Assembly (NCBI GenBank): GCA_951406725.2
Contig: OX597829.1
Span: 38,626,001-38,690,000, forward strand
From: Octopus vulgaris
Lineage: Eukaryota
Length of the DNA: 64,000 nt
Reading direction: 5' to 3'
Shown: positions 2,199-48,522 of the stretch, piece after piece
Layout of the letters: each line of letters starts with the position of its first letter
Numbering within the stretch: position 1 is the stretch's first letter
Made by a program: the position numbers and the translations under genes
The notes under the pieces: generated by a model
Told to the model about the DNA's origin: nothing
Database searches by the model: none
The model's input: the letters and a program-made list of their open reading frames with translations, nothing else

Positions 2199-2211
2199 AT
2201 TATTATTATTA

Positions 2212-2860
2212 TTTAAGACAGTGTGCCGTCAGAATCATTAGCATGCCAGGCAAAATGCTTAGCAGTATTTCATCTGTCTTTATGTTCTGAGTTCAAATCC
2301 TGCCGAGGTTGACATTACCTTTCATCCTTTCGGGGGTTGATGAAATAAGCACACATAATGTACTGAAGTTGATATAATCAGTTATCCCACTCCCTTAAAA
2401 TTTTAGGCCTTCTGCCTATATTACAAAGGGTTATTATTATTATCATTATTATTAAGGTGACAGTCTGGCAGAGTTGTTAGCACACCGGGCAAAATGCTAA
2501 GTGGCATGTCATCCATCTGCATGATATGAGCTCAAATTCCACTGAGGTCAGAATCGTTTTGAGATCATGTAATTGATTTACCCACTCTCCTTGAATTGCT
2601 GGCCTTGTGCCAAAATTTGAAACCGTGATTATTGTTATTAAGACAGCAACCTGACAGAACCGTTAGCACACCAGACAAAATGGTTAGCAGCATTTTGTTC
2701 GTATTTACATTCTAGGTTCAAATTCCAGAGAGGTCGACTCCGCCTTTTGTCCTTTCATGATCAATAAAATATGTACCATTTGAGCACTGGGATGAATGTA
2801 ATTGACTTAACCCCTCCCCTGAACTTGTTGGCCTTGTGCCTAAATTTGAAACCATTATAT
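2212..2860 (+). mobile_element. Three head-to-tail SINE-B variant copies joined by (ATT)n
   Basis: Repeated units ..GCAGAATC.TTAGCA...GTTCAAATTC...GGCCTTGTGCC.AAATTTGAAACC. Confidence 0.8.
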
Positions 2861-27309: not shown

Positions 27310-28300
27310 ATTAAGAAGGCAGCAAGCTGGGCAAAATGTTTTGTGACATTTCACCCATCTTTACTTTCTGAGTTCAAATTCCGCCAAGGTTTTACCTTTC
27401 ATCCTTTTGAAGTCATTAAAATAAGTACCAGTTGAACACTGGGGCTGATTTAATTTACTAGTTCCCTCCCACCAAATTTCAGGCTTTGTGCCTAAAGCTG
27501 AAAAGATGATTATTATTAAGGTTGCAAGCCAACAATTGTTAGCACATTGAGAAAAATGGTAAGCAGCATTTCATCTATTTGAATTCAAATTCCACTGAGG
27601 TCAATGTAATTGAATTAGCCCCACCCCTGAAATTACTGGCCTTGTGCCAAAATTAGAAACCATTATTATTTATAGTGTGCATGAATGTTTTACACTGAGA
27701 ATCATGTCCTTAATACCAAATCACAACCAGTTTCCTTAGATATCAAGAATCTTATAGTCCTTGTTGGTCCCAATACAGCAGATTTCTGAATTAATATTTA
27801 TCTCATAGTTACACCAATCTCAATAAGGGTGTTTGTTAATTCTATTGGTGACTGTGACTAAGGTACCTATAACAACTAGGGTTACTTTTGTAGAAACCCT
27901 TGTGTTATTATTAAGACGGCCAGCTGGCAGAATCGTTACCACACCAGGCTAAATGCTTTGTGACATTTCGTCCGTCTTTACATTCTGAGTTCAAATTCCA
28001 CCAAGGTGACTTTGCCTTTCATCCTTTTGGGGTTGATAAATTAAGCACCAGCCAAGCACTGGGACAATGTGATTGACTATCCCCCTTTCCTCAAATTCCA
28101 GGCCTTGTGTCTATAGTAGAAAGGATTATTATTATCATTATTATTAAGGTGATGAGCTGACAGAACAGTTACACACTCAACAAAATGCATAGTAGCATTT
28201 CATTTGTCTCTATGATCTGAGTTCAAATTCTACTGAAGTCAACTTTGTCTTTCATTATTCTGGGTCTGTTAATATTACTGGGGGTTGATTGTATCAATTG
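27310..28300 (+). mobile_element. Two tandem pairs of SINE-B variant (27310-27670, 27910-28300)
   Basis: Same units as at 2212-2860, joined by (ATT)n. Confidence 0.7.
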
Positions 28301-28629
28301 CCTCAATCCCATAAACTATTATTATTAGTCACTTTAACCCTGAGCCTATCAAACCCTTGCTAGTGGATTTGGTTGATGGAAAATGAAAGATTACATGTAT
28401 ATATATATATATATATATATAACTATATATCTGTTTGTGTTTGTTCACCACCACTGCTTAAAGCCCCTACTGATCTGTTTATGCCCCCCATAAGGTAGCA
28501 GGTAGCAGGCTTAGGGGGAAGAAAAATGAATACTGGGATTGTTTTTTTTACTGAAAAAATATGGAAAACCCTTCAATGTATAGCTGCATTATGATTGAAA
28601 AACAAGTAAAAGATATATATATATATGTG

Positions 28630-29180
28630 TGTGTGGTAAGTAGCTTCCTAACCAACCACATGGTTCCTGGTTCAGTCCCACTGCGTGGCATCTTGGGCAA
28701 GTGTCTTCTGCTATAGCCCCGGGCCGACCAATGCCTTGTGAGTGGATTTGGTAGACGGAAACTGAAAGAAGCCTGTCGTATATATGTGTATATATATACA
28801 TGTATGTGTGTGTATGTCTTTGTGTGTCTGTGTTTGTCCCCCAGCATTGCTTGACAACCGATGCTGGTGTGTTTACGTCCCCGTTACTTAGCGGTTCGGC
28901 AAAAGAGACCAATAGAATAAGTACTGGGCTTACAAAGAATAAGTCCCGGGGTCGATTTGCTCGACTAAAAGGCGGTGCTCCAGCATGGCCGCAGTCAAAT
29001 GACTGAAACAAGTAAGAGTAATATATATATATATATATATAGCTTTAGGCACAGGCCCAACCACATGGTTCTGGGTTCAGTCATATCACGTGGCACCTTG
29101 GGTAAGTATCTTCTACTATAGCTTCATTCCGATCAAAGTCTTAGGAGTGAATTTGGTTGAGAGAAACTGAAAGAAGCCTG

Positions 29181-29219
<39 letters not shown>

Positions 29220-29416
29220 TATGTATGTATTTGTGTGTCTGTGTTTATCCTGCTGATTTTACTTGGCAACCAATGCTGGTGTATTTGGCCCCATAACTTA
29301 ACAGTTCAACAAAACAGACTGATAGAATGAGTACTAAGTTTTGGGGTCAATTTCTTTGACTAAAACCATTTAAGGCAATGCCCCTGTATGGCTACAGTCA
29401 AATGACAAATAAGTAA

Positions 29417-29420
<4 letters not shown>
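28630..29420 (+). mobile_element. Two adjacent SINE family A copies
   Basis: Young copy at 28630-29020 and diverged copy at 29045-29420. Confidence 0.85.
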
Positions 29421-29502
<82 letters not shown>

Positions 29503-29507
29503 TTCAT

Positions 29508-29567
29508 TTCAACAAAAACTGTCCAACGAACGGGAACGTGAAACTCAGAGTAACAGGTTTTGTTGAA
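29508..29567 (+). ncRNA. Type I hammerhead ribozyme with a core mutation, in a ~160 bp insert within (TA)n
   Basis: Stem I UUCAACAAAAACUGU/ACAGGUUUUGUUGAA; core CCAACGA; stem II ACG-GGAA-CGU; GAAAC-UCAGA-GUA^. Confidence 0.7.
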
Positions 29568-29658
29568 TTTCTGCTGCTTTGAAATAAAATATATTACTCT
29601 ACCACTGGTATTTGAGTACTCTTTTTTCCACCTTGTTTCACATTTATGTGTTTACTCC

Positions 29659-29711
<53 letters not shown>

Positions 29712-29714
<3 letters not shown>

Positions 29715-30063
29715 CATGACTGTGTTGTAATAAGCTTGCTTGCCAACTACATGATTCCAGGTTCAGTCCCATGTGTGGCACCTTGGTCAAGTGTCTTCCA
29801 CTTTAACCTCGAGTCAACCAAAGCCTTGTGAGTGGATATAGTAGATAGAAACTGAAAGAAGCCCATTGTATATGTATATATATATATATGTGTGTGTGTG
29901 TTTGTTTGTGCTTGTATTTGTCCTCCACCATTGATTGACAACTGGTGTGTTTACATCCTAGTAACTTAGTAATTTGACAAAAGATAAAATAAGTACCAAG
30001 CTTTAAAAAGAAAAACATAAGTACTGGTTTTGATTCAGTGTAATGACTGAAACAAGTAAAAGT
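29712..30063 (+). mobile_element. SINE family A, diverged
   Basis: Collinear match to other A copies. Confidence 0.8.
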
Positions 30064-30154
30064 AATGTATGTAGAAACACTGGACACCCGTTGGAATGAA
30101 TGGTAGTAGGTGTTGAAGCTATGATGATAGATATGTCCATCTAGATTTTAAAAA

Positions 30155-30733
30155 GTCACCATGATAGATCGTTAACCACTACACACATTTTTTTCTCTCC
30201 TTGTTTTTTCTATGTCCCTTTCTGTAGAAGAGCATAGGCTCGAAAAGTAAATGACTTTTTCTGTTCCTGAGCGTTATACTAATACATCTGTTTGTTTTGT
30301 ACACCGCCTGTCTTCGTCTTTTGTTTTTTTCATAAACTCTCCCTATATATAATACATTCAACATTCGATAACCACTACACATTTTTTTCTCTCCTTGTTT
30401 TTTCTGTGTCCCTTTCTGTAGAAGAGCATAGGCCCGAAACGTAAAAGACTTTTTCTGTTCCTGAGTGTTATACTAATACATCTGTTTGTTTTGTACACCG
30501 CCTGTCTTCGTCTTTTGTTTTTTTCATAAACTCTCCCTATATATAATACATTCAACATTCGATAACCACTACACATTTTTTTCTCTCCTTGTTTTTTCTG
30601 TGTCCCTTTCTGTAGAAGAGCATAGGCTCGAAACATAAAAGACTTTTTCTGTTCCTGAGTGTTATACTAATACATCTAATTGTTTTGTACACCACCTGTC
30701 TTCGTCTTTTGCTTTTTTCATAAACTCTTCCTA
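30155..30733 (+). repeat. Three tandem ~194 bp units, each with a minimal hammerhead-like motif (retrozyme / PLE pseudo-LTR-like)
   Basis: Consensus CUUU-CUGUAGAA-GAGC-AUAG-GCUC-GAAAC-GUA^AAAG at 30218, 30412 and 30606. Confidence 0.75.
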
Positions 30734-31389
30734 GATCTTAAAATGCTTTTATTGTGATATGTATGTAATTATCTGTGTATCTCTTTTTTTAGTTTGGTCT
30801 TGATTGTGTGTGTGTGTGGGGGGGGGTGTATGTGTACGCGCATACGAGGAAAAGAAAGGAGAGCGTGCGTGTGTGGCCATCCACCTTTAACACTGAAATA
30901 TCTTGTATCAGATCAGTATTTTGTGTTCATTATCACCACCACCACCACCACCATCACTACTGTTATCAAGTTGTCATCATCGCTACAACTACTACCAGCA
31001 CTATTATTATCATTATTTCCATCATTATCGTTCTTTACCATCACCAACACTATTGGCATCCAGCCCCACCTACACGACAACCATCCCTCCACACCCCACA
31101 CACCCTGCAATCTCATCTACAACTATGACAACATTTACCTTATCATCATCATCAGCTACAAGTGTATGAAAACTTGACACAACTTGATTTATTATTTTGT
31201 ATATTTTTTTTTTAGGTTTTTGTTCTTTTTTTTCCATGATGATACTCTGATTACATCTTATTGTCATTCCACCTTGAGGTATTATTGGTTGTGTATATTG
31301 ACACCTCTTCTGGAAGATTCTTGTAGTTGTAGACACCATTAATTTCAATGGTTTCAGTTGTAGAACTAGTTTGTGGTAGCAGATCTTCC

Positions 31390-32260
31390 TTGAATATATC
31401 TTTAAATGGTTGGCTGAGCTAGTATCATTGAAGAGTTTATCCAATGTCTTTTTTTGGATACTTTGGTAGAAGTCCCTTTTATATTTCTGATTTCTTTATG
31501 TAGGCAGTTGAACAGCTGAGAACCTCTGGATATAAAACTGGTAAAATAGGTGTTTTTGTTCATGATTTTGGTGTATTTGGAAGCTGAGAGTATCTGCCAG
31601 TTCATGCTTTAAAATTCTCTCTAACACTGAAGTTTGGAACATTCCCCTCCAGGATGATTTTCTGTATGTATATGGTACTATATCTCTCACTTCAGCACTC
31701 AAGAGTAGAGAAGCAAGGCTTTCTGATATTTCCAGTGATGAAGGTTTTTAACAAAAGTTAGTTTACTCTTTTACTTGTTTCAGTCATTTGACTGTGGCCA
31801 TGCTGGAGCACCGCCTTTAGTCGAGCAAATCGACCCCAGGACTTGTTCTTTGTAAGCCTAGTACTTATTCTATCGGTCTCTTTTTGCCGAACTGCTAAGT
31901 TACGGGGACGTAAACACACCAGCATCAGTTGTCAAGCGATGTTGGGGGACAAACACAGACACACATACATATATACAGCGGGCTTCTTTCAGTTTCCGTC
32001 TACCAAATCCACTCACAAAGCTTTGGTCGGCCCGAGGCTATAGTAGAAGACACTTGCCCAAGGTGCCACACAGTGGGACTGAACCCAGAACCATGTAGCT
32101 GGTAAGCAAGCTACTTACCACACAGCCACTCCTGCATCTATATACTGGTAAATGTTCTTTGTAAACCTTCCCTTCTATGAGTTTGGTGATGTGGCTGATG
32201 AAAGATACATCATTTGACATGATTATTCCTATGTCCTGTTTCCCATTAGTTCTCTGACTC
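31390..32260 (-). mobile_element. CR1-like LINE 3' fragment interrupted by SINE A
   Basis: Remnants QDIGIIMSNDVSFISHI and SFISRGSQLFNCLHKEIRN. Confidence 0.6.
31762..32136 (-). mobile_element. SINE family A, full length
   Basis: Collinear match to other A copies. Confidence 0.9.
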
Positions 32261-32920
32261 ATTGTTGGTGTCAAATAATAGTGTCTTCTATCATACCCTT
32301 GGACCAACCAAAGCCTTGTCTGAAATAAATATATGGAAAATAGATGCATTGTGTTCAAACACAAGGTAGGTTGGAAGCAGCTGGAATGACTTTGATGATA
32401 GATGTATGCTGTATCAACCTGATCTCTGGGTAATCAATAAAATACACACATACACGCACACACATGCACAGTTTATGTCTCCTAAATTCTTCTTTCACTA
32501 GATATAGGCTTGGTCATGTGATTAAAATGTCTGCTTCAGAACAATATCATTGAGGATTGGTTCCTGCTGCATGGACACTGTTGGCTGGTGCAGCATGTTG
32601 AGTGAAATCTGGTGCGTAGAAACTGAAGATGCCCTTCCTCATATGTGTGTGTGCGTGCGCCTATTGCGCTTGTTTCAATGTGCAAGTGTTGATTATAAAC
32701 AAAAGCTCACCATTCACTCAAATGGTGTCATTTGTTTATAATCCTCCATATGCTTGGAAATGGGTGAAGGTTGGTGACAGGAAGAGCATTTGCCTGTAGA
32801 AAAATCTGCTTTAACAACTGGTTATTAAAATTGCAGATAGCATGCATGAGTGTGAATAATACAAATATATATTAAAAGAAATGAACCAAATAGGCAGCCT
32901 CAAATTTAGTAAGTAAAAAC

Positions 32921-34500
32921 TAGGGGTTTTTTCAGCTTCCCAGAATTCATATTGCTCAGAAAATTCAGGTGTATAAAACAATTTCCATAGTTTGGGAATC
33001 AGCCCCAATTTATATTTTTCAATTCTTAAAATTCATCTAATGATTTAGTGTTTGTGATACTAAAAAGTAAAAATTAATAAATATTTGAAAAAGAAAATAT
33101 GTATATTTGTATAGAAAACTAATTAACTAAAAAGCTAAATATTTTCCTAATGATTAAAAATATTTCAATCAATTTGATATTTTATTTCATGAAGCAGGAG
33201 TTGTTGATAGTTTGTTGTCACTCAAATTTGATTAGGAGTTTATAACAAAGAAAAGGCTTTCTCTCTGCTTTGATTGAAATGGTCCCAAGGTTACACAATT
33301 GTTTATGCCAGGTGACACTTCTGTTTGCAGTAATTTGATATACATTCCTTAACGATATCCTTTTTTTTTTTTTTTTATTCACAACATGATTGAATGTTCT
33401 TTCGATTGTTGTTGTTTTTCTACAAATTTGTTAATGGCAACATTTAATATCTGTAGTATAGACATTTCCTTTGAGGGAAGTGGGTGCTTCAATTATCATA
33501 GGTTTGGAATCGGAATGATAAGTGGGGGTTCTTCTGGTAAAATTATGAGCATCCTTTTTTAACAATTTCTTTGTGATATTTAACCATAAAGTTTCTGGTG
33601 GCAAAATTAGATATGAGTCAAGTGTGGTCAAGATTAAAACAGGATTATTTAAATACTTCATTAATCCAATCAGATTCAGATTCTTTTGTTATTTGATTCT
33701 TTTTCATCAGCAAAACGGATACTGGACTGTTCTGTCACTTCAATTCTTTTAGAATAACAACAAATATGCTCTCTGTAGTGACAAACAATGCATCTCTTTG
33801 ACCTAGATTTTCAAGTTCACTATAATTGGTTCTAATGCTGGAACTGTATAAATAGTATTAAATTCTTTGTCTTAAAAGTCGATTGGATGCTTTTGTATCA
33901 ATTATAACTTTCACACTACAACCTCTAAGGGACACGAATATTCTACCACTGCAAATAAACTATTTCTGTTTTGCTTTAATGTTTGGCTAATTGAAATTCA
34001 TGACCATGATCTTCTTTAACATATTTCTGAAGTATTCCATTGGAATGAACTGACAATTATTCTAATTTTTTAATGAAATTGTTAATGCTTAAATTTTCTT
34101 TGGTAGTATAGTCTTCTTGTATAATGTGGGTTATTTCATTAAGCAAATCAACATAATTATTAAACATATTCACAACTGTAGAATCTATGCATTGATCATC
34201 CTGAAATGTACCTTTGAGCTCACCATCATCATTACAAAGATCATTAGTTCAATTAATTTTATTCAATTTTCTTGTAATGAGCAGCACAGCCAAAGGAAGT
34301 CTATGAGCATAACAAATTGATATTTGCAATTAATAATCTTACCAAGTTTAACCATAACAGTTACAACTGTAATTTTATTTATTTATTTACTTATCAAAAT
34401 TGAATTCAGAAATATTTGTTTTTTTAAAACTTAAATTTTTTTTTTTCAGTCAGTAAGCTTCTATAAATTTTAACCATTCCCTTACTCCAGAATTTATCAG
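32921..34500 (-). mobile_element. Fossil hAT DNA transposon
   Basis: Minus-strand remnants VMVKLGKIINCKYQ/CYAHRLPLAV (34285-34317), ILQKYVKEDHGHE...KT.NSL, ALEPII...GQRDA and SIKAER.FS...LSD dimerisation-like motif; TAGGG start at 32921. Confidence 0.7.
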
Positions 34501-35487: not shown

Positions 35488-35630
35488 TCGAAAAGTACCT
35501 TAGGAATGAGAACCCAGTTTCGAAATTTCCCTAAGACACCTAATGAAGGCTGGAAGATATATCAGCCGAAATGTTGTGTTAACAACAAACAAAATGAGGA
35601 CAAATATCCATCAAATGTGAATAATATAAA
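35424..35630 (+). mobile_element. 5'-truncated copy of the tRNA-head/hammerhead element with an inverted 3'-end fragment
   Basis: Starts with inverted AGTTCTATATTTAAGAGAT, then (AAT)n, then ACAC-CUAAUGAA-GGCUG..CAGCC-GAAAU-GUU-GUGU (35536-35579). Confidence 0.75.
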
Positions 35631-40596: not shown

Positions 40597-40909
40597 CAGT
40601 TCTATATTTAAGAGATGAGGAATTATGTACGTTATTTAAATTTGATGGATATTTGTTCTCATCTTGTTTGTTGTTAACATACCATTTCAGACATATGGTG
40701 TAGTGGTTAAGAGCGCTGGCTACTAACCCCAAATTCCAGGCAGTGAACTGGATGATGATAATAATAATAATATCAAAAAATATCTTAGGAATGAGAATCC
40801 AGGTTCAAAATTTCCCCAAGACACCTGATGAAGGTTGGAGGGTATATCAGCTGAAACGTTGTGTTAGCAACAAACAAGATGAGGACAAATATCTGTCAAA
40901 TGTAAATAA
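40597..40909 (+). mobile_element. tRNA-headed, hammerhead-bearing SINE-like element with an inverted 3'-end copy and TSD
   Basis: Inverted 3' end 40597-40690; head TGGTGTAGTGGTTAAGAGCGC; (AAT)n; hammerhead; TSD TAAACTGAAGTT/TAAACTGAGGTT. Confidence 0.8.
40821..40864 (+). ncRNA. Minimal type I hammerhead ribozyme
   Basis: ACAC-CUGAUGA-A-GGUUG-10nt-CAGCU-GAAAC-GUU^GUGU; stem III is the self-complementary ACGU. Confidence 0.8.
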
Positions 40910-45340: not shown

Positions 45341-46241
45341 CAAGTTGGTATCAAAAAGTTTCTAAACTAGTTATTTTTAATAAAAAAATAACTTTTTTTT
45401 ACCTAAGTCTTAACATCATCTGCTACGAAATAGTCACTTTGCACATCAATACACTGCTCCCAGCATTCCTGCCACTTTTGGAATCCAGCCTGGAAATTAT
45501 TTTCTGTGAGTTGAGGACCTTCTGCAATTTTCTCTGGATCTTGACAGCAGTGTTAAAACAGCGACCTTTGAGCTGCATTTTCATCTAGGAGAAGAAATGG
45601 AATTTCGCAGGTGTTAAATCTGGTAAATAGGGTGGGTGCAGAAGCAGTACCATTTTGTTTTTGGCAAGAAACTCACGAGTGAGGAGAGCTCGGTGACAGG
45701 GTGCATTGTCATTTCTGAAGAATCCAATTTTTCGCACTCCACAGACTCGGTCGCTTTCACCAAATATCCTTCTTCAAATTATTCAAAACTTCATTGGTTC
45801 TCCTCCAATGATCTTCATGCACAACATGCTGATGAATTTCCCCCACATTTCTGGCGCTGACAATCTTGGCAAGTCTTCTGGATCACACATCGTCTTCCAG
45901 AGCTGATATTCCACTCTTGAAGCACCCATGCCACTCAAAACATTGCATACGACCCATTGCTGAAGCATGTTCAATGTTTCTGTAGCAGACTTTCAAAGCT
46001 AAATGCGAAATTTCATGTTAGTTCTTTGTTCCACCTTCCTGTCCATGACAAAAATTGCAGACTATAGCTGACATGTAATCACAGAAACACAAATTTCAGA
46101 ACTTGGAAAATAAACACAGTGCTGTCACTTGGCACACTGCCTCATGAAGGTCACTGCTAGCTTTCACTGTGCACACAACCATGTGCTGCCATCTGTTGGC
46201 ATGCTACAGAACTAGTCCAGCAACTTTTTGATACTAACTTG
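45341..46241 (-). mobile_element. Second internally deleted mariner, same family as 39467
   Basis: TIRs CAAGTTGGTATCAAAAAGTT / AACTTTTTGATACTAACTTG; MKMQLKGRCF remnant. Confidence 0.9.
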
Positions 46242-46592: not shown

Positions 46593-46800
46593 AGTCGCCG
46601 TGATAGATCATTAGCCACTACACACATTTTTTCTCTCCTTGTTTTTTCTGTGTCTCTTTCTGTAGAAGAGCTTAGGCTTGAAACATAAAAGACTTTTTCT
46701 ATTCCTGAGCGTTATACTAATACATCTGTTTGTTTTGTACACCGCCTGTCTTTGTCTTTTGTTTTTTTCGTAAACTCTCCCTGTATATAATACATTCAAC
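46593..46800 (+). mobile_element. Monomer of the 194 bp hammerhead-like unit
   Basis: Near-identical to the 30155-30733 units; motif at 46656-46691; adjacent to (TA)n. Confidence 0.75.
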
Positions 46801-48522
46801 AAATATTTTGTGTATTTTTGATTATAAAGACTCGTAGATACTTTTGATGAAGTTCTAAGATAAAAAAATATAAAAATTCATTTGCTGAAATAAACTCTGT
46901 GACTTGGAATCTTTAAAAACATTTGGAGTGGGGAGCAGTCATAACAAAGAAAAAACAAAACTATATATGAAAAATAACATTAGAATAATGGAATATATTA
47001 CTTATTCACACTCTTGACTAATTCTTTAGCTTAATGAGTAAAGTTCTATGAAACAAAAATGTTTATGAAAAAACTATTTATAATTAAATTGATATTTAAG
47101 ATTCAACTTACCCTTTTAATGGTTCGATTTTAAACTGAAAGAATGTTTTTTTTATTATTTATTTATCTATTGTTTATGATTCTAGAGCAAAAAAAAAAGG
47201 TGAGGTGGAAATAAAATGCTAACAAAAAATTTTTTTTTTCTAAAAATGTTCAAAGCAAAATTAAAATCAGATCAAATTCTAATTTTTGATTTTTGATTTT
47301 ATTTATTTATTTATTTTCACTTTTATTTACTTTTTTGTTTCATTTCCTTACCTCCTCCTTCATCTCTCAGCACACACACATTTATACACACACACACATG
47401 CACAACTTTATTGCTCATGTTCAGTGTAATGAAATGCAGTATCATAATTCAATTGAACTATTACAATTTTTTTTGTTATGTTGTTTATTTGATAGGATAG
47501 CGTGATTTTGTTGTTGTTTTTAAATAAAACAGGAATACTGTTGTAGGATTGGTTGCATAAATTGTGAATAATGTCATGTGATTGCATAAGACATGAATAA
47601 TATTATTATTGATTAGATAACACATGAATAATGTTATATGATTGATCACATTTTGTGAAACTCTTTTTAAATGCAAACAAGAATAATGTTCTGAAATTGA
47701 TTGAATAAAATGGGGTTAATGTCAGATGATTGATTGCATAAAACAGGGTTAATGTCAGATGATTGATTGCATAAAATGTGATTAATGTTGTACAGTTGAT
47801 TGCATAGTGTGGAAATCTTTTATCGAGGAAACAAAGTTAAGTGCATACTTTCAAAATTGGTCCTGTTAATGTTAGCTTAAGTCAAACCATAAAAATGCTG
47901 CTGTTTAGTCATTATTGAACAGACCTATCATTAAAAGTTTTCCATCAATGACCTCACTGTCGAGTTGTATTGCAAGGAAACAAGTACATCGCTTGTCATT
48001 TAAGTCGATGATTGGGGAAGAGTTGATAGTTAACTATGTAAAGTTTCTGTTCATTCGCTCTACAATCTGACCTGCTGGAACACTATACTTTCTGTGTTTG
48101 TGTGTGTGTGTATGTGTAATAATATACATAAAAAAAGCAGAGAGAATTAGAGATTCCCTAGTTTACTTGACAGCTTGATCCTCAAAAAATATGACACCCT
48201 CTCTCTGTGTGGTGGGGGCGTACATAATAATATACTTAAATCTAAAGAGGAAAGCGAAGAAACAGAAGCATTTCTATAATTGGTAACATAATCAACCTTA
48301 ATGCAATGAATACTGGAAGTTGATTCGTGTCAAAGAATCTGCTCTTTATCTACAGGCACAGAGTAAACTCTGCTAAAGGCTAACTGGAGTACTTTAAATT
48401 TATAGGTCTACTAAAGGTGAGCAATCCTGTGATGAAATACATTCCAGCTGTGATCACTCAAATCTTTTATTCAGGCGTAATGAATCTAAGATTACATTAT
48501 CTAATGTATCATTTTTTTTTTA

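What the first reader, a model, noticed from the sequence alone, without database searches (positions are those of the whole stretch)
30155..30733. Tandem trimer of a 194 bp unit with a variant-core hammerhead: candidate circular-RNA retrozyme
Seen: three units whose motifs are exactly 194 bp apart, consensus CUUU-CUGUAGAA-GAGC(AUAG)GCUC-GAAAC-GUA^AAAG. Each copy has a different private lesion (GAAAA, GCCC, AUA). The core is atypical (U at position 6, extra A after A9) and stem III is only ACGU. Established: loopless palindromic stem III hammerheads work as dimers, and metazoan non-LTR retrozymes are tandem units of a few hundred nt or less processed to circRNA. Inference: a multimer copied from a ~194 nt circular template, possibly with an unusual catalytic core.
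Basis: partly seen in the sequence, partly recalled or inferred. Interest (0 to 1): 0.75.

Follow-up and report, generated by a model that had tools for sequence, protein, structure and literature searches.

The report
Triplicated Penelope-type repeat, odd hammerhead core
Three head-to-tail copies of a very common 200-base scattered repeat, likely the end piece of a Penelope-like jumping gene, each carry a damaged hammerhead ribozyme motif and likely arose by ordinary DNA duplication rather than from an RNA circle; the one unusual point is a core letter (U where A is the rule) that nearly all copies of the repeat family share.

Summary
The 194-bp trimer and its three hammerhead motifs are real, but the circular-RNA reading fails. 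Public contigs of three runs show a dispersed family of roughly ten thousand copies with defined ends. The tandem junction holds only 0.1-0.25% of median body depth. Unit 1 starts with the family's own 15-nt 5' end, which is not on the would-be circle. Unit 2 is a mosaic: like unit 3 in its 5' half, identical to unit 1 in its 3' half (p = 0.01). That fits a two-copy insertion, flanked by a 13-bp target duplication, later expanded by unequal crossing-over. The predicted circle is unstructured, and no two copies can form an intact stem III. The extra A after A9 is the normal trait of Penelope minimal hammerheads. U6 is unusual and family-wide (no other letter at 5% or more in three runs), and CUGANGA descriptors would miss it. 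It probably weakens or kills cleavage; its activity is untested. No Penelope coding sequence was linked to the family, so the Penelope origin is inferred from anatomy.

The parts
30141..30153 (+). Left copy of a likely target-site duplication (CTAGATTTTAAAA)
   Evidence: 12 of 13 identical to 30731-30743; 10 of 20000 random flank pairs from the window reach 13 nt with one mismatch
30154..30168 (+). Native 5' end of the repeat family, present only on unit 1 and not in the 194-bp repeated unit
   Evidence: Shared with the single copy at 46593; family loose ends pile up at 30154 and 30159 with mixed AT-rich flanks
30154..30363 (+). Unit 1: full-length family copy plus a 12-nt tail (30352-30363)
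   Evidence: most family copies end at about 30351 in (TA)n; the tail is shared with the copy at 46593-46801
30172..30227 (+). TTAAC, then an AG-free pyrimidine tract, then TAG formed by U6-A7-G8: resembles a 3' splice site overlapping the ribozyme core (use not shown)
   Evidence: 58 AG-free nt, 84% pyrimidine; 15 of 3438 YAG sites in the window are this rich; no spliced joint among the rows shown
30218..30253 (+). Minimal hammerhead motif 1 (C3 30222, predicted cut after 30249); lesions C15.2>A and stem I A1.3>U
   Evidence: family letters C and A at 30246 and 30252 in 83-92% and 98-99.6% of depth
30364..30557 (+). Unit 2: mosaic, unit-3-like up to about 30468, identical to unit 1 from there through the tail
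   Evidence: 5' part: 6 substitutions plus a 2-nt deletion against u1, 2 against u3; 3' part: 0 of 91 against u1, 5 of 72 against u3
30412..30447 (+). Minimal hammerhead motif 2 (C3 30416); stem II A-C mismatch
30558..30733 (+). Unit 3: lacks the first 15 nt of the family and the tail; ends in CTA shared with the target site
30606..30641 (+). Minimal hammerhead motif 3 (C3 30610); G16.2>A breaks the ACGU palindrome
30731..30743 (+). Right copy of the likely target-site duplication (CTAGATCTTAAAA)
46593..46801 (+). Single copy of the same family, behind a (TA)n run, with the same U6 core (C3 46660), the same tail and the rare G at the 30306-equivalent site
   Evidence: 92% identity over 210 nt

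Best explanation
This is a triplicated copy of a dispersed, high-copy ~200-bp repeat with a minimal hammerhead motif, likely the terminal repeat (pLTR) of a Penelope-like retroelement, which likely inserted as a two-copy partial tandem and was likely expanded to three copies by unequal crossing-over in DNA. Inferred steps: (1) a Penelope-type endonuclease/reverse transcriptase nicked an AT-rich site and primed on the CTA shared by target and element end; (2) it copied one unit to 15 nt short of the 5' end, restarted at the 3' tail of the same or a sister RNA and copied a second unit to the true 5' end, leaving a 13-bp duplication; (3) the two halves diverged by about 6%; (4) a misaligned exchange between positions 30273 and 30289 (unit-1 numbering) made the mosaic middle unit. 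All three motifs are damaged on top of a family-wide A6>U change, so this locus is predicted to release little or no circular RNA.
For: Shown: the family is abundant (3593, 13000 and 10947 contigs laid in X11, X5, X7) with defined ends and mixed flanks (loose-end agreement 0.38-0.60). The junction bin is 0.10, 0.25 and 0.18% of median body depth. Unit 1 alone carries the family's 5' end. The 13-bp flanking duplication is reached by 10 of 20000 random pairs. Events where u1 is the odd copy all lie at or before 30272 (7 of 7); those where u3 is odd lie after it in 4 of 5 cases (exact Mann-Whitney p = 0.010; counts). At 30172, 30181-2 and 30272, u2 and u3 share a letter that is not the family's. 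All three units share G30263, which under 2% of family depth has, so they come from one source. The tail lies between units but not at the 3' end, so duplicating one inserted copy cannot make the first junction. The motif fits the published Penelope min-HHR consensus CUGANGAH...GAAAN-palindrome-NUH except at position 6 (PMC4209133 Fig. S3). Rotifer Penelope pLTRs are 193-218 bp with a TATATATA box, an optional tail and 8-10-bp target duplications (PMC3846280); partial tandems with a tail at one end are typical (PMC8557442). A hammerhead-free dispersed repeat in the same window is also locally doubled (53380-53746).
Against: No reverse transcriptase or GIY-YIG sequence was linked to the family: none among 72 nearby frames in Pfam, and no shared upstream sequence in the loose ends shown. 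Fixed 5' ends are less typical of randomly truncated Penelope copies and suit a short non-autonomous element. The tail is 12 nt, not 30-40. Summed contig depth is not a copy number, and the call printed only 15 of 24 joints and 20 of 655 loose-end rows. The raw DNA run X21 held none of the family, so there is no read-level check. The crossover test rests on 12 events, and a mis-join of two haplotypes would give a similar mosaic.
Confidence: 0.68

Rival explanations
1. The array was reverse-transcribed from a 194-nt circular RNA made by hammerhead cleavage and ligation (a non-LTR retrozyme).
For: Exact 194-bp spacing and a hammerhead motif in every unit; the size lies within the 170-400 nt of animal retrozymes (PMC7229834); a flanking duplication shows an insertion event; animal retrozymes are proposed to derive from Penelope pLTRs (10.64898/2026.07.22.740005).
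Against: The junction is at most 0.25% of median family depth, and lowest (0.10%) in the run guessed to be RNA. Unit 1 begins with 15 nt that are not on the circle and has the family letter at three sites where u2 and u3 are changed. The predicted circles fold at -10.5 and -11.7 kcal/mol, worse than shuffles (z +1.6, +1.35), whereas retrozyme circles are described as highly self-paired. No pair of different copies gives 4 of 4 stem III pairs. The core is minimal with no loop-loop partner, while described retrozymes mostly carry canonical type I motifs.
Confidence: 0.07
2. One copy inserted, and both duplications happened later in DNA (slippage or templated repair), possibly drawing on the related copy 16 kb away, which shares the tail and a rare letter.
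For: The trimer's units 1 and 2 and the copy at 46593 share G at the 30306 site (non-A letters 0.1-0.9% of family depth) and the 12-nt tail, which is more kinship than the family at large shows. Local doubling of another dispersed repeat is seen in the window.
Against: The flanking duplication abuts unit 3 directly while the tail lies only between units; a purely DNA-level copy has no reason to start exactly at the family's 5' end.
Confidence: 0.13
3. The locus is really a dimer, and the middle unit is an assembly mis-join of two haplotypes.
For: Such a mis-join would give the same mosaic; u2 differs from its two 'parents' at only 2 of 193 compared positions.
Against: No direct evidence of mis-assembly; unit 2 has a private change (C30434). 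No laid record spanned the array, so it is untested.
Confidence: 0.08
4. On the separate question of U6: the family's hammerhead is an active natural variant, and U6 is tolerated (with protein help) or selected, possibly because U6-A7-G8 doubles as the 3' splice site of a pLTR intron, so that splicing and self-cleavage would exclude each other.
For: Every other feature is intact in the family majority: 4-bp stem II with G10.1-C11.1, ACGU palindrome, 4-bp stem I. The only non-CpG variant at 5% or more inside the motif is the permitted A17>U (10-19%). The upstream tract looks like an acceptor. In D. virilis Penelope the intron's 3' end maps to helix I (PMC4209133), and the Anolis PLE hammerhead cleaves only with its protein (PMC11167929).
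Against: A natural A6C variant cleaves at under 0.1 per min, in line with mutagenesis (PMC3088659). The lack of subfamily variants inside the motif is not significant (0 of 31 against 8 of 156 sites, Fisher p = 0.36). No spliced joint at 30228 and no RNA-specific dip at the cut site (0.36 against 0.41 and 0.35) appear in what one search printed. U-rich 5' flanks are part of the general min-HHR consensus. Hammerhead cleavage was not needed for insertion in vitro, so a dead core can be amplified.
Confidence: 0.2

Closest known systems
Minimal hammerheads (min-HHR) in pseudo-LTRs of metazoan Penelope-like elements (Cervera and de la Pena 2014, PMC4209133)
   Same: Type I layout, no loop 3, palindromic 15.1-16.1 (ACGU), unpaired base between 9 and 10.1 (54 of 56 examples in Fig. 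S3), G10.1-C11.1, U-rich 5' and AU-rich 3' flanks, mostly single dispersed copies.
   Different: U at position 6; all 56 examples have A6 (their descriptor required it). Stem II is short (4 bp). No link to a Penelope ORF was found here.
Penelope pLTR / partial-tandem insertions with tail (PMC3846280, PMC8557442, PMC11167929)
   Same: About 200-bp repeat, TATATATA near the end, extension present at only one copy's end, AT-rich or (TA)n targets, short target duplication.
   Different: No coding part; tail 12 nt rather than 30-40; 5' ends fixed; a later DNA-level expansion to three copies.
Metazoan non-LTR retrozymes (Cervera and de la Pena 2020, PMC7229834; Li et al. 2026, 10.64898/2026.07.22.740005)
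   Same: Tandem units of 170-400 bp, each with a type I hammerhead motif, low GC, long target duplication; proposed to arise from Penelope pLTRs by local amplification.
   Different: Here the tandem is a rare local event in a monomeric family, every motif is damaged, the core departs from CUGANGA, and the predicted circle is unstructured. Li et al. saw no cleavage in 8 of 9 predicted dimers.
Natural core variants of hammerheads (Perreault et al. 2011, PMC3088659)
   Same: A change at position 6 has been seen in nature (A6C in phage Bcep176, low activity).
   Different: A6U, and fixed across a very large repeat family rather than in one sequence.

Membership tests
Metazoan non-LTR retrozyme | Tandem units of about 150-450 bp | tested here: met
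   194-bp period, 2.9 copies
Metazoan non-LTR retrozyme | Complete type I hammerhead in at least two consecutive units | tested here: not met
   All three have U6 plus a lesion; at best 3 of 4 stem III pairs between different copies
Metazoan non-LTR retrozyme | Family spread as multimers of the circle's junction | tested here: not met
   Junction bin 0.10-0.25% of median body depth in 3 of 3 runs that hold the family; contigs only, tables truncated
Metazoan non-LTR retrozyme | Highly self-paired circular RNA predicted | tested here: not met
   -10.5 and -11.7 kcal/mol, z +1.6 and +1.35 against 300 shuffles each
Metazoan non-LTR retrozyme | Self-cleavage and circular RNA in vivo | not testable with these tools
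   X11 is only guessed to be RNA and is kept as contigs
Penelope-type minimal hammerhead | Core CUGANGA ... GAAA ... NUH | tested here: not met
   12 of 13 core positions fit; position 6 is U in 4 of 4 window copies and in over 95% of family depth
Penelope-type minimal hammerhead | Unpaired base after A9, G10.1-C11.1, palindromic loopless stem III, short stem I | tested here: met
   compared with Fig. S3 of PMC4209133
Penelope-like element (pLTR-derived, non-autonomous) | Continuity with an RT / GIY-YIG reading frame in some copies | tested here: inconclusive
   No such domain in 72 nearby frames; no genome held; collection scans gave no family copy
Penelope-like element (pLTR-derived, non-autonomous) | About 200-bp terminal repeat with hammerhead, optional tail, partial tandem, AT-rich target, short target duplication | tested here: met
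   against PMC3846280 and PMC8557442; tail shorter than described

The most novel reading that the evidence does not exclude
A repeat family of about ten thousand copies carries a working hammerhead with U instead of the supposedly invariant A6, invisible to CUGANGA searches. The U was kept because U6-A7-G8 is also a splice acceptor, so the element chooses between splicing and self-cleavage at the same three bases.
Probability: 0.12. Interest if true: 0.7.

Novelty: new variant of a known kind. Interest (0 to 1): 0.3.

Why it matters
The trimer itself is ordinary, though it is a clean example of how a Penelope-type end can turn into a retrozyme-looking minisatellite by DNA exchange with no circle involved, which warns against calling retrozymes from tandem layout alone. 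The family-wide A6U core matters more. If it cleaves, it widens the hammerhead consensus and means that descriptors requiring CUGANGA miss whole families, including in Penelope lineages reported to lack hammerheads. If it does not cleave, it shows that a family can reach roughly ten thousand copies with a dead ribozyme, which bears on the open question of whether Penelope hammerheads are needed for transposition. One cleavage assay separates the two.

Tried and rejected
Rfam search of 28000-33000 at E up to 10 returned no hammerhead family among 22 rows; Rfam models do not cover this minimal form, so this says little. No whole genome is held. Pattern scans: metagenomes gave 2 loci, a chance match in a bacterial gene (L001) and a copy of a different repeat family (L002); viral contigs 0 and 0; GTDB genomes 0 and 0. 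Run X21 (raw DNA, same organism label as the best holder) laid only 5 unrelated reads of 12.9 million and was set aside. I first read 30080-30153 as the end of a Penelope reading frame; rejected, because depth there is a single contig in X5 and nil in X11 and X7. Pfam on 72 of 124 selected nearby frames found no RT or GIY-YIG. A protein search with the 102-aa minus-strand frame of the repeat found nothing. Folding the whole array gave no double-hammerhead and less structure than shuffles (z +2.0). A test for purifying selection on the motif among subfamily variants was not significant. Literature on A6U: a search for hammerhead with A6U gave 2 records (1 listed, a twister paper, not read); a search for CUGUAGA and related terms gave 462 papers, the 20 listed unrelated; hammerhead with Penelope and octopus gave 5, none on this family by title. 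Motif searches in the supplements of PMC8557442 and PMC13282606 found nothing, but long sequences there are cut. Lunse et al. 2017 on variant Penelope hammerheads is not held and may describe position-6 variants. Earlier scan notes held nothing on this sequence or genome.

Full report
Observation. The array is real: 30169-30733, period 194, 2.9 copies, 95% matches. Hammerhead cores lie at 30222, 30416 and 30610. A relaxed descriptor finds 0.017 such motifs per shuffled window over 60 shuffles, against 3 in the real one. A fourth, single copy lies at 46593-46801, 92% identical, with the same core. The host is an animal-like genome; from recall its other repeats resemble octopus SINEs, which I did not test.

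What the family looks like elsewhere. No genome is held, so I laid four public runs on 29960-30410. One, X21, held none of the family. The other three (X11, guessed RNA; X5, guessed DNA; X7, kind unknown; three different organism labels) laid 3593, 13000 and 10947 contigs. Depth rises at 30154 and falls after 30351. Loose ends collect at 30154, 30159, 30330 and 30351 with agreement of only 0.38-0.60, that is, mixed AT-rich or (TA)n flanks. The bin with the tandem junction (30360-30375) holds 0.10, 0.25 and 0.18% of median body depth, and this is an upper bound because unit starts also fall in it. In X5 the body is about 13,500 times the depth of the one contig that covers this locus's own flank; the tool warns that summed depth is no copy number, so this is an order of magnitude only. 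The call showed 15 of 24 joints and 20 of 655 loose-end rows; none shown goes back by about 194.

The core. No other letter reaches 5% at 30222-30233 in any of the three runs, while neighbours (30216, 30234) are listed, so U6 is the family state. Family majority letters repair the private lesions (C at 30246, A at 30252). The extra base after A9 is not atypical: it is a hallmark of Penelope minimal hammerheads and occurs in 54 of the 56 examples of Fig. S3 of PMC4209133, whose consensus is CUGANGAH. All 56 have A6, though the descriptor required it; PMC8557442 likewise searched for cuganga. A natural A6C variant cleaves at under 0.1 per minute (PMC3088659). From general knowledge, U4-G5-A6 is a U-turn that wants a purine at 6. 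So U6 probably weakens or kills cleavage. Against that, the rest of the motif is intact in the family majority, and the only non-CpG variant inside it is the permitted A17>U; but the contrast with the rest of the unit is not significant (p = 0.36). U6-A7-G8 also ends a 58-nt AG-free, 84% pyrimidine tract with TTAAC upstream, an acceptor-like layout met by 15 of 3438 YAG sites of the window. An intron ends at helix I in D. virilis Penelope. No splicing to this site shows in the rows printed, so this is a lead only.

How the trimer arose. Three facts exclude a plain copy of a 194-nt circle. First, unit 1 starts with the family's own 5' end (30154-30168), shared with the single copy and absent from the repeated unit. 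Second, u2 and u3 share three changes that neither u1 nor the family has (30172, a 2-nt deletion at 30181-2, 30272). Third, unit 2 is a mosaic. Before 30273 it differs from u1 by 6 substitutions and the deletion, and from u3 by 2 of 102. After it, it differs from u1 at 0 of 91 and from u3 at 5 of 72. The 7 events where u1 is the odd copy and the 5 where u3 is the odd copy separate along the unit (exact Mann-Whitney p = 0.010); one further event is private to u2. This is what unequal crossing-over in a dimer gives. A haplotype mis-join in assembly would look similar and is not excluded.

The earlier dimer. The whole array is flanked by CTAGATTTTAAAA and CTAGATCTTAAAA; 10 of 20000 random flank pairs do as well. 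The right copy overlaps the element's last letters (CTA), as in target priming. A 12-nt tail lies between units but not at the 3' end, and all units share G30263, found in under 2% of family depth. I infer that two units were written in one insertion event from one source: the first stopped 15 nt short of the 5' end, and synthesis restarted at the tail. This matches the partial tandems with an optional tail described for Penelope-like elements (PMC8557442; PMC11167929), whose rotifer pLTRs are 193-218 bp with a TATATATA box and 8-10-bp duplications (PMC3846280). The link to a Penelope reading frame is not shown: Pfam found no RT or GIY-YIG in 72 nearby frames, and scans of three collections gave no copy of the family. 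Another dispersed repeat without a hammerhead is doubled at 53380-53746, so local doubling needs no ribozyme here.

Could the locus make a circle now? Between different copies stem III reaches at most 3 of 4 pairs; u2 has a stem II mismatch and u1 a stem I mismatch. The two possible circles fold worse than their shuffles. In X11 the junction share is the lowest of the three runs, and the depth dip at the cut site (0.36) matches the other runs (0.41, 0.35), so it reflects unit 1's private changes. X11 is only guessed to be RNA and contigs cannot show ends, so this is weak negative evidence.

Comparison and verdict. It works like a Penelope pLTR-derived non-autonomous repeat with a minimal hammerhead. 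It fails the retrozyme tests that could be run: intact motifs in consecutive units, multimeric spread, self-paired circle (PMC7229834; 10.64898/2026.07.22.740005, which itself proposes local amplification of pLTRs and found cleavage in 1 of 9 predicted dimers). The locus is ordinary. The family-wide A6U core was not found in print in my searches, but the most relevant paper, Lunse et al. 2017, is not held, and supplements with cut sequences or closed bioRxiv supplements may bear on this. Interest 0.3.

What I read. 10.64898/2026.07.22.740005: parts 1-3 of 5. PMC7229834: parts 2-4 of 6. PMC4209133: parts 1-2 of 4 and supplement parts 1-2 of 3. PMC11167929: parts 1-2 of 4. PMC3088659: passages and section 8. 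PMC8557442: passages, section 6, supplement searches. PMC13282606: passages and a supplement search. PMC6765202, PMC8967140, PMC11014351, PMC3846280: passages. Lunse 2017: title only. Earlier notes of this scan on other genomes reached similar verdicts for other Penelope ends; they are unchecked and are not counted as support.

Noticed in passing
window 35536-35573 and 40821-40858 (+): Two copies of a second dispersed repeat with a minimal hammerhead of the usual kind: CUGAUGA-A core at 40825, damaged (CUAAUGA) at 35540. The same genome thus has an A6 family beside the U6 family, a natural control.
   Followed up: partly
window 46593-46801 and 30154-30363: The single copy and units 1-2 share a 12-nt tail and a G that under 1% of family depth has; two loci 16 kb apart are closer kin than the family at large (small subfamily or local source and offspring).
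   Followed up: partly
L002 positions about 2211-2239 (-) and 2380-2410 (+): A host-like metagenome contig with an inverted pair of another minimal-hammerhead repeat; one copy reads CUGAAGAUGAGC, the other CUGUAGAAGAGC, the same U6 core as here, in an unrelated family.
   Followed up: partly
window 53380-53746: Tandem dimer (184 bp) of a hammerhead-free dispersed repeat that has 16 further matches in the window.
   Followed up: partly
window 45588-45773 (-): Weak DDE_3 match (E 0.0013, below Pfam's cut-off), probably a Tc1/mariner remnant.
   Followed up: no
window 31073-31760 (-): A decayed coding-like stretch with several stops and no Pfam match, just downstream of the trimer; origin unknown.
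   Followed up: no
window 30278-30284: TACTAAT, a branch-point-like word, followed by a second long pyrimidine tract in the 3' half of each unit.
   Followed up: no
run X21: A raw DNA run under the same organism label as the best holders holds none of this very abundant family, so that label covers different organisms or the reads were filtered.
   Followed up: no
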